Assembly: GCF_004010195.1 (NCBI RefSeq)
Contig: NC_057719.1
Span: 44,866,861-44,923,290, forward strand
DNA: 56,430 nt
Source: Chiloscyllium plagiosum
Lineage: Eukaryota
Reading direction: 5' to 3'
In this document: in pieces, positions 6,064-56,430 of the stretch
Layout of the letters: every line of letters begins with the position of its first letter
Position numbering within the stretch: the first letter of the stretch is position 1
The notes under the pieces: generated by a model
The model's input: the letters and a program-made list of their open reading frames with translations, nothing else
The model's database searches: none
Told to the model about the DNA's origin: nothing
Made by a program: the position numbers and the translations under genes

Positions 6064-6212
6064 TTAAACAATATCCCATCAATCATGAACATTCATTTAT
6101 TGAAATGAACCATTTTGAATTCAGGATTAAAAGTACCATCTGTTTGTTTGATTGTAGAGGGAGCTAAGCAATTTAAAATTCATGAAAGCTGTGAATTTAG
6201 GAATCTTTAATC

Positions 6213-6307
6213 ATTTCCTGAAGAAGGGCTTATGCCCGAAACGTCGATTCTCCTGTTCCTTGGATGCTGCCTGACCTGCTGCGCTTTTCCAGCAACACAT
6301 TTTCAGC
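6213..6307 (+). mobile_element. Penelope-like element 3' fragment with 9-bp TSD (TCTTTAATC at 6204-6212 and 6308-6316)
   Basis: Same repeat family as 18122, 46296 and 56187; carries a hammerhead core; flanking direct repeats. Confidence 0.8.
6214..6249 (+). ncRNA. Minimal type I hammerhead ribozyme motif
   Basis: CUGAAGA (6218-6224), extra A, stem II GGGC-UUAU-GCCC, GAAA, palindromic ACGU stem III; predicted cleavage after GUC (6245); stem I only about 2 bp. Confidence 0.65.
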
Positions 6308-6589
6308 TCTTTAATCTTGCCAAGTTCATGACTACTGGCTTTTTTTGTCATTGTTGATCCAGCGAAGAATGAGAGGAGGAATGATTTGCATTTATATAGC
6401 ACTGCAACCCAATATTGCAACATTTTGCCATACAATGCATTCGGTATCCTGAAAAACAATAGTAACTGTTGACTAAGCAAATATAATTCGATTAAGCAAA
6501 GAATAAACTAAATACAAGTAAAACCAATAATGACATTTGGGAAAAATAATAAAGAAAATGATCTGCTACAAATTGTATTACCATTTACA

Positions 6590-7210
6590 AAAAAAATTTA
6601 CAAAGTGCCTTTAATATAATAAACTATTTGTAATAATTCACATATGTATGATAAAACAAAATTTGACACTGAACCACAGAAGATATTAGAGTAAAGAAAT
6701 GGATTTTAAAGAGCACCTAAATGGGGGAGTGAGGAGTGGAGAAAGCCAGAGATATTTGTGGATGGAATTCCACAATTCGGGCTCTTGAACATGCAGAGTT
6801 ACTGGAGTGCAGTTATGGAGGAGTGTAGGAATGGAAGAGCAAGGGTGATTTGAACATGGGGATAAATATTTTGAATCAATTTGTTAAGCTAACTCAGAGC
6901 CAGTTTAGGTAGGAGGCATGTGTGAATGGGACTTGGTACAGGTTAAATCAAGAAAACAAATCTTTAGTTGGTCTTAACTTTATAAAGCTTAAAGCATGGG
7001 AGAATGGCCAGGAGTATACTGGAATAGTTGAATCAAGAGGTAGCAAGGACATTGATTATAATTTCTGCATAAGGTGAGCTGAGTTGGGCAATGTTACGGA
7101 GATTTAAATTGATTGTTTTGGCAATGATGCAGATATGTGATCAAATGCTCAGCTTTAGACCAACCATAATATCAAGGTTATGAACTATCTTGCTGAGTCT
7201 CTTACAGTTG
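6590..7210 (-). mobile_element. Old L2-like LINE 3' fragment
   Basis: Purine-rich degenerate sequence resembling the reverse complement of an L2 3' end; boundaries approximate. Confidence 0.45.
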
Positions 7211-10104
7211 ATAAAGAGAGTGATAATGAAGTATGGAAAGACAAAATGTATTTAAGAAACTGAAACTCTCATTTTTTTCAAGTTTATTGAGATATAATGA
7301 AGCCATGGGCAGCTGAGCTGGATATGAAAATGTTTAGATCACTTTTCAAATATCTTTTGTCCAGTATGAAAGATGTCTTGATGTACTCCACCCATCAAAA
7401 GAAGGAAAAATTGGAGGGTAGACAGAAAAATATGGTTTTAAGTCAAGTACAGTCACCAAAATCTAGGGCATCTTTCTCAATACTCTCAACCTACCAGCCC
7501 ATACATTAATTCCTTTAACAATTGCTGTTTGTCTCCTATCCATTAGCTAATTTTATTTTGTCTATTATAAGGGTTTACCTAAAATACTCCTACCTTGTGA
7601 AGTTAATTATTATCTCTTTGTTTGGGCCCTTATCAAGAGATATTTAGATGTCAAAGTTTCCAAGTACCAAGATGTCTACACTCTAGTTGGATTGCCACTT
7701 TCTCAAAGAAATGGGATAGATTCCTGAATTTGAATTTATTTATTTCTGAATCTATGTTGACTGCAGATGAATAATTTATAATTGTACAGATGATCTTCAT
7801 ATTTAATCTTGAGGATCAATTCCATTACATGCAATAGGAAGTAAGTCTAAAGGATACAAAGTAATCTGCATTGGTTTTGTCATTCTGTTAGCTAATGGTC
7901 ACTAAGTAAGTCTATTAGTGCCTCCCCACTATCTATTGATCCCCTCTCCCTGATTATTAGTGTTTTACAAATTTCCTTCCTAATCTCTATCAGCACACTA
8001 GGATAGATATTGTTTATTCCTGGGAATGATTTATTTTTGTTAATTTAGCTAGTCTACAGCTTTTTTCAGTGGCAATGTCCCTCATATCTTTCCATGTGAA
8101 CACACGCAGAAAGAGTTATTCAAAACATTTGCTACTTTTTTCTTATATTTATATTCAAGCCTATTTGGTACTTTGTTTGCCATCTCTCCTATGACTGCCC
8201 TCTTCTGTTGTGCCTTTGAAAACTAGTTTATTATACTTAAGCTGACCTGCTATGCCTTTTACTTGTTGCCTCTTTATTCCTCTGTTATTTTAATTAGTTT
8301 TGAAACCCTTTGCTTTCTCCCTCGAGGATTTTGACAAACCCTTCTTTCTCCGTCTTACACCTCTAATTTATTTTTTTCAAACATCTGCTTTCAAGTTTGT
8401 TGGATTTGAGAATGTATTTGTATTTGTTCTACATGTCTTTTTAAAAGTGTCTCCCTTTGTCTTTCTTTTGAATTGTTGTGAATAACCTTCCCTAACTGAT
8501 TTGTGAAAGATTTCCCTCCTTTTGCTAAAATAGCCATTTTAAGTTCATTTACCATGTTCCTAGTCTTGGGTATTTTTGACTCTTGGGTTGTGTTAAAGTT
8601 ATTCTTTGTTGGTCGCTGTTTCCCTCAGGTTCCAAAGCCTCAGTGTCTTGTACATTTGCTGATTGTTTTTTAAAAAAAGATCAAAATGATCATTTTTGTT
8701 TGTTACCTCCTCAATGCTCCAGGTCAAGAAGCAGTCATTAACTGAACCTGATAACTCTGGTTTTAGGGATGTGGATTATCCTGTTTATATGACATTGATT
8801 AGTGTTCCATTGAATTAACATTCCCATTGTTACATAAACATGTAAATTATGGGAATTGGGAGGGTTACCTTTACCTGCTCTGCTGTTTTTAAAAAAAAGG
8901 CTCCCAGATTACTTACAAGCTGGAAAGAGTCCAGAATTCAAATGTATTTGGATAATGAATGATTGCTCACATAGACCAATCAACATTTAACTGAATTCTC
9001 AAATCCTGACTGGACTTTAAACTTGGGTCTGAATAAGGAAGTTTTTTTTAGCGTGGGAAAGATCAGAAAGCTGAAGCTAAATTAATTTATTTTCCTTCTT
9101 GGAGCTAGGTGGTGTAGGAATCCCCAACAAGGCAACTTTAGAGCAGAAGAGGCCTACACTCCCTGCACCACCACCTACCGCAAGAGTGCCCCCTATAAAA
9201 CCTTATCCCCTTCCAATTCATGGCGTGTTGGCTGGCAACCCTCTGACAAATTCTCAAAGCCGATATTCAATTCCCATTTCTTCATGGAGGGCAGTCAGAA
9301 AATTACCTGGAACTTCCCATTTCCTGTCAGAAAATCCATACCCTTGTTAATAAACTTGGTAAACATTGAAACCATTGGTTTCGGTCTCGGCTGCAAATCT
9401 TTTGATCTGCCTGACCTCCCTGCAACTGCCTGAGGTGAAGCCAGCTGTTCCCAACCTTAGGGCTGTATTTTCCGGGAGACAAGTCATCTCCAGAGACCTT
9501 TTAAAGGCAGGCAGGGCCTGGATGCAGACATCCTTGTCCTAACTTTCAACAGATCCCACTTTTGCAGGCAATGGGAAAGTGGCAGGGTCTGAATCTCACA
9601 GGCAGGAAACCTGGACTCAACGGGGTAATTTGAGATTGACAATTTACATGAAAGACACTGTTACAAACGATGGGATGGGAGGAATATGTTTGTAATCAAA
9701 CCCCACTACTCCTCCAGTCACTCCATTAAAGTAAATGTTTTAGATCACCAAAATGACCAATTGGTTCCCTTTGGTACTACTGTCCACATTAAAAAAAACT
9801 TTCAACAGGATTCCTTAATGAACTCAAAATAATCTGTTTATTGTAAAACACAATTCAACCAATACTAAGAGGCAAAACCGGTTAACATCTAAATTGTAAT
9901 CCAGAATTGGAACTTTCCCTTTGAATCCATTACAAAGACTTTGCATAGATGATATTTTAGAAAGAACGAAAGAAAAACATCCTTATTGGCGAATGGTCAG
10001 AAAAACAATGGATAGTTTGATGAATTCTCATAGTCCATTGGGTTTCGCGTTGTTGAAATCAAATTGCTGACATTCGTAGAATGATGGAAGATCTTCCAAG
10101 CAAG

Positions 10105-54857: not shown

Positions 54858-55699
54858 GTGAGCAGATCTGGGAGTGTCCTCCAAGATGTTTTGAAACAAT
54901 ATAGATAATCTTGTTCTGTATAGATTCTCGCAAATGAGAAATTTTGTCATTTATTTGAAAATGTACTAAGAACAGGCACAAGTTAAAATGTGAATCTACA
55001 ATCTATAATATTAATTGGATTGCAAATTGTTTTTTGCAAAATTATCAGGCTTGAGTTCCTTGGTATATTCCAGCAGAGTTGGGTTCTACAAGACAGTGGC
55101 TCCTTTTTGACACAATGTAAATTCCACCAGGAATTCCTCTGCAGCTGTGCATCATAAGAGAAAGAGTGACCTAAAAATTGTTCCCAGACCAACATATACT
55201 GTGGTACAGGAGGTGTCTGTGGGACTTTCAATAACCATTCTTAACATAGAAATAATCCCCGTGCAATTAATTCTTCCTCAAACTGAAGAATAATTGGAAA
55301 CATAATTACTCTTTAAGCAGAGTGTACCTACAACCACTTGCCCTTCTTCTCTGCTTAGACAATGACAAAGAATTAGTGTGAAGTGGGCACCAATTGCGGT
55401 GCCATGTGTGGCACAGGTTCTTGCTTCCTTTGTGTTAAGGACTTTGGTTGAGATCAGTCCCTGGACAGACTGGCAGGTGGATGAAGAGGAGCTCACCAAG
55501 AATTGCTAGGCTATTGCACTTCAGTGTTCTCTCAAATGCTTAGATTTTCCTTAGATTGTGGTTTTGGAGTAGACTATCCCAGTTATATGTGATGAGGAAA
55601 GACATTGACTAATAGGGAAATTTAAATCAGTTTTTTTGTTAGCAGGAAGCCTGCCTGGGTATTTTGGCTTATCATGCCGGAGAACTGATTGGGATTGAT

Positions 55700-55870
55700 G
55701 CTAAGGCAAGCTGCCCCTGTTTTCTTCAGAGCACAGTTTGGTGCTCACAATGTGGTCCCCTCTACATTGGAGAAACGAAGCACAGACTGGGTGACAGTTT
55801 GCAGAACACCTACGTTCTGTCTGGGGCAAAAAAGGATCCTGAGCTTCCAGTTTCCTGCCACTTCAACTAA
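55700..55870 (+). pseudogene. GIY-YIG endonuclease remnant of a Penelope-like retroelement
   Basis: CSQCGPLYIGETKHRLGD, then frameshifted FAEHLRSV, then PELPVSCHFN. Confidence 0.8.
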
Positions 55871-56186
55871 GATGTTTCTCATAAGATTTTTATTTCCTAA
55901 GTTCTGCTTTTCCAGATGGTAATAGAACAGCTAGGTAAAAAATGTTAATATTTCAGATAAAGTCTTTGGTCAGAATGGTCCTTGATGTGTGATGTTAATT
56001 TTTTTTATTGCTCACGACTTGCTGAGTTTTTCAGTATTTTAAATTTTATTTTGGATTTTCAGAATCCATAGTAATTACTTTAGTACTGAAGATTTTAAAA
56101 CAATGTGTACATTTAAAAATACATCAACTGCATGAGAAGTGTTTTAAACTTTTGTTGGCACCATTTTTCAAAATGACTATGACACT

Positions 56187-56430
56187 GTGGTGGATCAATG
56201 GTGCTGGAAGAGCACAGCAGTTCAGGCAGCATCCAAGGAGCTTCAGCAAAATCGACGTTTCAGGCGAAAGCCCTTCATCAGGAATAAAGGCAGAGAGCCT
56301 GAAGCGTGGAGAGATAAGCTAGGGGAGGGTGGGGGTGGGGAGAGAGTAGCATAGAGTACAATGGGTGAGTGGGAGAGGAGATGAAGGTGATAGGTCAGGG
56401 AGGAGAGGGTGGAGTGGATAGGTGGAAAAG
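56187..56430 (-). mobile_element. Penelope-like element 3' region running off the window end, with hammerhead motif
   Basis: Minus strand CUGAUGA-A-GGGC-UUUC-GCCU-GAAA-CGUC (56281 to 56254); purine-rich UTR on +; matches 18122-18217. Confidence 0.8.

What the first reader, a model, noticed from the sequence alone, without database searches (positions are those of the whole stretch)
6204..56290. Multiple hammerhead-ribozyme-bearing Penelope-like insertions in the introns of one Hippo-pathway gene
Seen: six motifs of the form CUGANGA-A-[stem II]-GAAA-[palindromic stem III]-NUH, at 6218(+), 18127(+, U4C), 38168(+, degenerate), 45562(+), 46384(-) and 56281(-). They come from two unrelated repeat families whose stem II sequences differ but still pair (GGGC/GCCC, GGGU/ACCC, GGAGC/GCUCU). 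Established: Penelope-like elements carry minimal type I hammerheads with palindromic stem III that work as dimers, and an extra A after A9 is tolerated. Inference: these introns are seeded with self-cleaving-RNA motifs that ordinary annotation would miss.
Basis: partly seen in the sequence, partly recalled or inferred. Interest (0 to 1): 0.7.

Follow-up and report, generated by a model that had tools for sequence, protein, structure and literature searches.

The report
Penelope ribozyme stubs in shark FRMD6
The six self-cutting-RNA motifs in this shark gene's introns are real, but they are ordinary end-stubs of Penelope-type jumping genes, found at the genome's usual density and equally on both strands, and they likely do not cut or regulate the gene's RNA.

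Summary
All six motifs exist as described, inside introns of + strand FRMD6/Willin; a seventh, broken one was missed. Both families are pseudo-LTR ends of Penelope-like elements (PLEs): longer copies lie behind RT/GIY-YIG frames, three of the six insertions have 9-15 bp target-site duplications, and stems co-vary across families. The locus is not special. The genome holds 144,784 exact minimal-hammerhead cores against 36 controls. Twenty other gene spans predict 9.1 copies per window; 7 are present. Strand split there is 122 sense to 123 antisense, and catalytic bases decay like their neighbours. Of four sense motifs, two have dead cores, one is predicted locked in a hairpin, and one is intact but has a 2-bp stem I and no same-strand partner within 11.9 kb. 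Rfam gives no hit. The class is published (PMC4209133), and this scan has reported it on other DNA (26 findings, at least 12 genomes). Verdict: known kind, low interest.

The parts
2697..54859 (+). FRMD6 (Willin) coding exons for about aa 34-489, approximate bounds: 2697-2787, 20918-20997, 22086-22162, 24383-24570, 27883-28038, 38558-38623, 42600-42669, 47036-47210, 48953-49291, 54725-54856; gene continues on both sides
   Evidence: Exon 48953-49291 is 100% identical over 113 aa to P0001, named FRMD6; tblastn and peptide mapping; flanking exons; FERM_M hit
6213..6307 (+). Family A solo stub, sense. Hammerhead C3 at 6218, predicted cut between 6245 and 6246. Core, stem II and palindrome intact; stem I two pairs. 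9-bp target duplication at 6204-6212 and 6308-6316
   Evidence: E 9e-5, custom model
18124..18222 (+). Family A stub, sense, among LINE-like fragments. C3 at 18127; U4C and C15.2U; core not intact; no clear target duplication
28800..28950 (.). Family A head-to-head foldback whose two arms both begin at or after the cut site: no ribozyme core. 14-bp duplication at 28786-28799 and 28958-28971.
38163..38280 (+). Older family A-type copy, sense. C3 at 38168; U4A and G12A (dead core); stem II GGGU/ACCC
45470..45679 (.). Family B head-to-head pair. Sense motif C3 at 45562 (core intact, G-U closing pair, cut site 45590/45591). Antisense motif C3 at 45546 (3-nt core deletion, G12A; the missed seventh motif). 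The arms form a 75-bp hairpin. 11-bp duplication at 45459-45469 and 45680-45690
46296..46499 (.). Family A head-to-head pair. Antisense arm carries an intact hammerhead (C3 at 46384); the sense arm 46408-46499 starts about 33 nt after C3, lacks the ribozyme and has the longer 3' tail. 15-bp duplication at 46281-46295 and 46500-46514
   Evidence: E 3e-6
56190..56430 (-). Family A long copy, antisense. C3 at 56281, G-U closing stem II. Runs past the window end through element 3' untranslated sequence into a reverse-transcriptase remnant

Best explanation
The motifs are the minimal hammerhead signature at the ends of two Penelope-like retroelement families, left in FRMD6 introns as short insertions that are likely inert passengers. 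Shown: each motif heads a 90-130 nt end module; longer copies elsewhere carry reverse-transcriptase and GIY-YIG frames upstream; insertions have target-site duplications, two alternative 3' ends about 35 nt apart, and often a head-to-head inverted arm. Inferred from published PLE biochemistry: the element's protein nicks DNA and reverse-transcribes from one of two sites just inside the ORF start; most products stop at or near the front of the ribozyme, so the whole uncut motif is copied in. Selection on the ribozyme acted on the parent elements (stems co-vary between families), not on the scattered copies (they decay neutrally). In the FRMD6 pre-mRNA cutting would need two motifs to pair through the 4-nt palindrome and probably the element's protein; the one intact unmasked sense copy has no near partner and a 2-bp stem I, so cleavage is predicted to be negligible.
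For: PLE identity: RT (YIDD) and GIY-YIG upstream of family A copies (Pfam GIY-YIG E 7e-4, below cut-off); GIY-YIG-like frame upstream of family B whose full-length shark relatives carry RVT_1; RT remnant attached to the 56281 copy. Duplications of 9, 11, 14 and 15 bp. 3' ends of 178 family A copies: 77 at +87..+91 and 46 at +121..+128 from C3; 79 of 178 are arms of head-to-head pairs; 72 of 178 start at -11..+2 and 3 of 178 at the cut site (counted from the histogram in 60). Covariation: 94 of 96 cells paired and 6 of 8 pairs with two-sided change in 12 copies of other families, slid controls 24-44%; 68 of 72 cells in one copy per type. Ordinary density: 245 copies in 1.513 Mb of 20 gene spans, 9.1 expected per window, 7 seen; exact core pattern 2 seen, 2.3 expected. 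Strand: 122:123 all, 52:52 core-intact, 31:32 solo core-intact. Decay: catalytic non-CpG sites 33/660 sense and 35/610 antisense, other sites 29/594 and 26/549, CpG sites 68/396 and 73/366 (78). Folding: stem I probability about 0 for all four sense motifs once flanks are included; 45562 lies inside a long hairpin.
Against: Cleavage was not measured. 6218 keeps a perfect core and stem II (pairing probability 0.97-1.0 in context) and is not masked by an inverted arm. The strand test has a 95% interval of 43-56% sense, so a depletion of a few percent is not excluded. The anole PLE ribozyme cleaves when the element protein is present (PMC11167929), so protein-assisted cutting in trans is conceivable. 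Rfam gives no hit in the window or genome, so the hammerhead call rests on descriptor, covariation and a custom model. No intact full-length element was recovered, and clade placement rests on motifs, not a tree.
Confidence: 0.88

Rival explanations
1. Sense copies cut host pre-mRNA at a low rate, by pairing in trans with abundant element RNA or with help from the element's protein, and cells tolerate it because splicing still joins the exons.
For: 52 of 122 sense copies in 20 genes keep an intact core. Repeat-derived RNA reads of this family are present in a raw RNA run. Protein-assisted cleavage is published for an anole PLE (PMC11167929). Tolerated cutting would leave no strand bias.
Against: The 4-bp palindrome duplex is weak (-3.1 kcal/mol). 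Stem I at 6218 is two pairs. Only 3 of 178 copies start at the cut site. Published cleavage is nil for a monomer and low for dimers (PMC4209133); 1 of 9 frog dimers cleaved (10.64898/2026.07.22.740005).
Confidence: 0.07
2. One or more motifs have been co-opted to regulate FRMD6 expression or splicing, as proposed for conserved intronic ribozymes such as CPEB3.
For: Four of six listed motifs are sense; 6218 is intact.
Against: Counting the seventh motif the split is 4:3. Density and strand match background. 6218 is a young copy: it matches a 30-nt pattern found 56,022 times. The three older sense copies have dead cores or are masked.
Confidence: 0.02
3. The motif in the dominant young family A is already a vestige: it lost activity in the parent element and is carried only as part of the end module.
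For: The commonest family A stem I has a U-U mismatch at pair 3 (49 copies ATTC/GATT against 8 fully paired ATTC/GAAT). Inserted copies nearly always contain the uncut motif. Ribozyme mutants do not block insertion in vitro (PMC11167929).
Against: All catalytic bases, stem II and the palindrome are kept in every family A subfamily seen, and stem I pairs 1, 2 and 4 still hold. This rival changes the parent's biology, not the verdict for the locus.
Confidence: 0.03

Closest known systems
Minimal type I hammerheads (min-HHR) in pseudo-LTRs of metazoan Penelope-like elements (Cervera and de la Pena 2014, PMC4209133; parts 1-2 of 4 read)
   Same: CUGANGA core, one extra base after position 9, G10.1-C11.1, palindromic 15.2-16.2 with no loop III, short helix I, mostly single dispersed copies, close opposite-strand pairs, many families per genome.
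   Different: Sharks are not named in the parts read. The count here (144,784 exact cores) is far above the about 4,000 (coelacanth) and 9,000 (Xenopus) reported, though the descriptors differ. Family A has a 4-bp helix II and a mismatched helix I.
Endonuclease-positive PLE insertions, Neptune-like (Craig et al. 2021, PMC8557442; Arkhipova et al. 2013, PMC3846280; passages read)
   Same: 5' truncation, adjacent inverted copy, optional 30-40 bp tail, 8-10 bp target duplications, C-terminal GIY-YIG with CX2-5CxxC linker and CCHH motif.
   Different: Here most inserts are ORF-less stubs under 250 bp, with duplications of 9-15 bp. Clade was not placed on a tree.
PAc, Poseidon element of the anole (Frangieh et al. 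2024, PMC11167929; parts 1-2 of 4 read)
   Same: Two 3' ends marking two RT start sites; uncut RNA as the main template; no reads ending at the cut site.
   Different: Different clade by the linker motif; activity was shown in vitro there and is untested here.
Non-LTR retrozymes of animals (10.64898/2026.07.22.740005; parts 1 and 3 of 5 and passages read)
   Same: PLE-derived, type I hammerhead, found in the one chondrichthyan sampled.
   Different: Retrozymes are head-to-tail tandems with two or more ribozymes; the window's copies are solo or head-to-head.

Membership tests
PLE minimal type I hammerhead | Catalytic core CUGANGA ... GAAA ... UH | tested here: met
   Met in 4 of 6 (6218, 45562, 46384, 56281); not met at 18127, 38168 or the seventh motif
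PLE minimal type I hammerhead | Extra base after position 9 and stem II closed by G10.1-C11.1 | tested here: met
   Extra A in 6 of 6; G-C in 4 of 6, G-U in 2 of 6; four stem II pairs form in 6 of 6 (66)
PLE minimal type I hammerhead | Palindromic 15.1-16.1 stretch for dimer stem III | tested here: met
   ACGU or AGCU in 4 of 6; U-G at 18127 and 38168 (66)
PLE minimal type I hammerhead | Helix I of 4-5 bp closing the motif | tested here: inconclusive
   Pairs 1-2 form in 6 of 6, pair 3 in 1 of 6, pair 4 in 3 of 6 (66); related subfamilies have 3-5 bp (63); predicted pairing about 0 in context for the four sense motifs
PLE minimal type I hammerhead | Compensatory changes between families | tested here: met
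   copies were chosen for a pairing stem II, so stem I and the palindrome are the unbiased part
PLE minimal type I hammerhead | Self-cleavage as a dimer | not testable with these tools
   Needs in vitro assay; read laying was uninformative
Rfam Hammerhead_1 (RF00163) | Covariance-model score at threshold | tested here: not met
   No hammerhead among 17 matches at E<=10 in the window; none in the genome, but only 73 candidates were scored and controls did not ring
Endonuclease-positive PLE | RT plus C-terminal GIY-YIG frame upstream of the end repeat | tested here: met
   Family A: L061, L063. Family B: L062 endonuclease part and RT-bearing relatives. In the window only the 56281 copy reaches an RT remnant
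Endonuclease-positive PLE | Target duplication, optional tail, inverted truncated arm | tested here: met
Neptune clade of PLEs | CX2-5CxxC linker plus CCHH motif; RT phylogeny | tested here: inconclusive
   Linker and CCHH-like residues read in L061 (34) and P0121/P0122 (71); no tree built; Nematis not excluded
Non-LTR retrozyme | Head-to-tail tandem units each with a hammerhead | tested here: not met
   No such tandem in the window
Host-co-opted intronic ribozyme | Sense bias, protected core, conservation at the orthologous site | tested here: not met
   No bias or protection; orthologous sites could not be examined

The most novel reading that the evidence does not exclude
This shark genome carries about 145,000 intact hammerhead cores, one per 25 kb, with half of the intronic ones facing the pre-mRNA and no sign of purging. 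If element RNA or protein completes these half-ribozymes in trans, thousands of host transcripts, FRMD6 at 6245/6246 among them, would be cut whenever Penelope elements are switched on: a transposon-triggered, genome-wide intron-cleavage layer.
Probability: 0.04. Interest if true: 0.65.

Novelty: new member of a known kind. Interest (0 to 1): 0.13.

Why it matters
For FRMD6 it probably does not matter. The useful residue is quantitative. A vertebrate genome tolerates about 145,000 minimal hammerhead cores with no detectable strand bias in the introns sampled, which argues that solitary PLE hammerheads are harmless in pre-mRNA. Copy ends that pile up at the front of the ribozyme, not at its cut site, fit the in vitro result that uncut RNA is the template. 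Both bear on the open question of what PLE hammerheads are for.

Tried and rejected
Rfam scan of the window: only chance hairpin (miRNA-model) hits on the foldbacks; RF00163 on the genome was uninformative. Sequencing runs: no RNA holder listed. Raw RNA run X19 gave 1,154 and 1,419 reads on two stretches, 99% running on into unlike sequence (other copies), none on the unique flanks, and no place where many molecules begin or end; X20 laid nothing; so no test of cleavage at this locus. A peak of copy starts at the cut site was looked for and not found: 3 of 178, about 4 expected from the neighbouring rate (family A only, 178 of 244 copies passing 88% identity). Strand bias was tested for families A and B, family C (14:20), a SINE (86:73) and a LINE end (71:79): none significant. 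A custom covariance model from 12 copies of other families ranked 46384, 56281, 6218 first (E 3e-6 to 9e-5), 18127 at 0.003, 38168 at 0.24 and missed 45562 except a fragment; some training copies are distant family A relatives, so it is not fully independent. Retrozyme reading rejected (no tandem units). The Lunse et al. dimer paper was not held; it is cited only through PMC6765202 passages. One search returned nothing because of a pattern error, corrected in 60. Supplements were not read; those of PMC4209133 and the 2026 preprint may list shark motifs.
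Full report
Observation. All six motifs are present at the stated places and strands. Read as stem I 5' arm, core, extra base, stem II, GAAA, four bases and 3' arm: 6218(+) and 46384(-) have a perfect core, GGGC/GCCC stem II and the ACGU palindrome; 56281(-) and 45562(+) have an intact core but a G-U closing pair; 18127(+) has U4C and C15.2U; 38168(+) has U4A and G12A. A seventh motif with a 3-nt core deletion lies at 45546(-), head to head with 45562. A further foldback at 28800-28950 belongs to family A but lacks the core. 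A model built from 12 copies of other families in this genome ranks three of the motifs first, E 3e-6 to 9e-5.

Host gene. The exon at 48953-49291 is identical over 113 aa to a record named FRMD6 of a bamboo shark. Ten coding exons map to the + strand of the window and three more to the flanks, so every motif is intronic; four are sense, three antisense. FRMD6 as an upstream Hippo component is taken from search listings and abstracts.

What the repeats are. [quoted passage not shown] Family B lies behind a homologous endonuclease frame (31% over 144 aa) whose full-length shark relatives carry RVT_1. The 56281 copy itself continues past the window into an RT remnant. Four insertions (three of the six listed, plus the 28800 foldback) have target duplications of 9, 11, 15 and 14 bp; none was clear for 18127, 38168 or 56281. 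Among 178 family A copies of at least 88% identity (of 244 found), 3' ends fall at two places about 35 nt apart (77 and 46 copies) and 79 are arms of head-to-head pairs. These are the described marks of endonuclease-positive PLEs (PMC8557442 and PMC3846280, passages; PMC11167929, parts 1-2 of 4). The CX2-5CxxC linker points to Neptune rather than Penelope/Poseidon; no tree was built.

Is the ribozyme fold real? At family level, yes. At least five stem types occur in the sample. In 12 copies from outside families A-main and B, 94 of 96 cells pair, 6 of 8 pairs change on both sides, and slid controls pair at 24-44%; the two count-type measures did not exceed shuffles (362 and 232 of 500). One copy per type gives 68 of 72 cells paired against a shuffle mean of 41. 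These copies were picked for a pairing stem II and are related, so the numbers are not probabilities; stem I pairs 1-3 were not part of the descriptor and pair in 24 of 24 cells, though best-paired examples were favoured.

Is the locus special? No. Exact counts in the 3.56-Gb genome: 56,022 for one 30-nt family A pattern, 3,897 for family B, 144,784 for a general core against 36 reversed controls. The window has 2, 0 and 2, against 0.89, 0.06 and 2.3 expected. I fetched 20 gene spans whose strand came from Pfam exon hits: 8 spectrin-repeat and 12 ion-channel genes, 1.513 Mb without N. They hold 245 ribozyme-covering copies of A and B, or 9.1 per window length (range 3.8-13.7); the window has 7; 12 random stretches hold 25 in 111 kb. 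The strand split is 122:123 (95% interval 43-56% sense), 52:52 for intact cores, and 31:32 for intact cores without an inverted arm. In 127 well-matching family A copies, catalytic non-CpG bases are changed at 5.0% (sense) and 5.7% (antisense), other bases at 4.9% and 4.7%, CpG bases at 17% and 20%. That is neutral decay. Limits: two gene classes, strand inferred from exon hits, no power for small effects.

Would the sense copies cut? 18127 and 38168 have damaged cores. 45562 is predicted to lie inside a long hairpin with its own inverted arm. 6218 forms stem II (0.97-1.0) but not stem I (about 0); its palindrome duplex is worth -3.1 kcal/mol and the next same-strand motif is 11.9 kb away and damaged. 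Published data: no cleavage for a monomer and low cleavage for dimers (PMC4209133, parts 1-2 of 4); protein needed, and uncut RNA the main template (PMC11167929); 1 of 9 frog dimers active (10.64898/2026.07.22.740005, part 3). In agreement, 72 of 178 copies begin within -11..+2 of C3 and only 3 at the cut site (alignment ends blur by a few bases). An earlier scan note (e1-8030472) reports a peak at the cut site for one family; I did not see one for family A in this sample. Read laying gave no test.

Comparison and novelty. This works like, and at family level is, the PLE minimal hammerhead of Cervera and de la Pena 2014. It is not an Rfam Hammerhead_1 member by score and not a tandem retrozyme. 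Searches for hammerhead + shark + Penelope, bamboo shark + Penelope + repeat and Penelope + shark genome + transposable elements + intron listed no paper that by title or abstract describes these shark families; the 2026 preprint includes one chondrichthyan, and supplements were not read. The scan itself has 26 such findings in at least 12 genomes and more in this genome; these are unchecked notes, not support.

Verdict. Observation confirmed; Penelope origin supported; special relevance to FRMD6 or the Hippo pathway not supported. New member of a known kind; interest 0.13. The boldest reading left open is trans-activated cutting of host pre-mRNAs across the genome (probability 0.04).

Noticed in passing
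family A copies, 20 gene spans, the FRMD6 span and 12 random stretches: 5' ends pile up just in front of the ribozyme (72 of 178 within -11..+2 of C3), which suggests templates begin there and are copied uncut. Earlier scan notes propose a capped leader; the cap was not tested here.
   Followed up: partly
L168:6728-6771, L061:3476-3519, L167:9425-9468 and others: A third hammerhead family (extra base U, 6-7 bp stem II closed by G-U, stem I CCA/UGG); 34 ribozyme-covering copies in the 20 gene spans, none in the window. Its parent ORF was not traced.
   Followed up: partly
family A, genome sample: The most abundant young subfamily has a U-U mismatch at stem I pair 3, while a sister subfamily pairs fully.
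   Followed up: partly
window 39902-39940 (+): Solitary hammerhead-like stretch (custom model E 0.002) with A9C and no relative among the fetched loci; possibly a decayed copy of a rarer family, or chance. 20272-20313 (-) is a similar weak hit.
   Followed up: partly
window 55736-55867 (+): Old GIY-YIG endonuclease remnant of another PLE copy, 36% over 43 aa to L061.
   Followed up: partly
window 44950-45273: 37-bp GC-rich tandem repeat, 8.8 copies, 92% matches.
   Followed up: no
window 12599-12719 and 13325-13445: 121-nt inverted arms, 96% complementary, 605 nt apart; MITE-like.
   Followed up: no
window 4094-6060, 17835-18500, 34801-35511, 41456-42100; 32971-33267, 36133-36431, 40626-40931: Decayed LINE fragments (RVT_1 hit at 41459-42100; CR1-like label recalled) and three copies of a SINE-like repeat (label recalled).
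   Followed up: partly
P0124, P0127-P0130: Several annotated shark protein isoforms (for example septin 5a, XRCC5, PPP1R12A-like) contain family B endonuclease sequence: exonised PLE pieces or annotation errors.
   Followed up: no
window 52440-52776: CT-rich microsatellite, period 18 (4).
   Followed up: no
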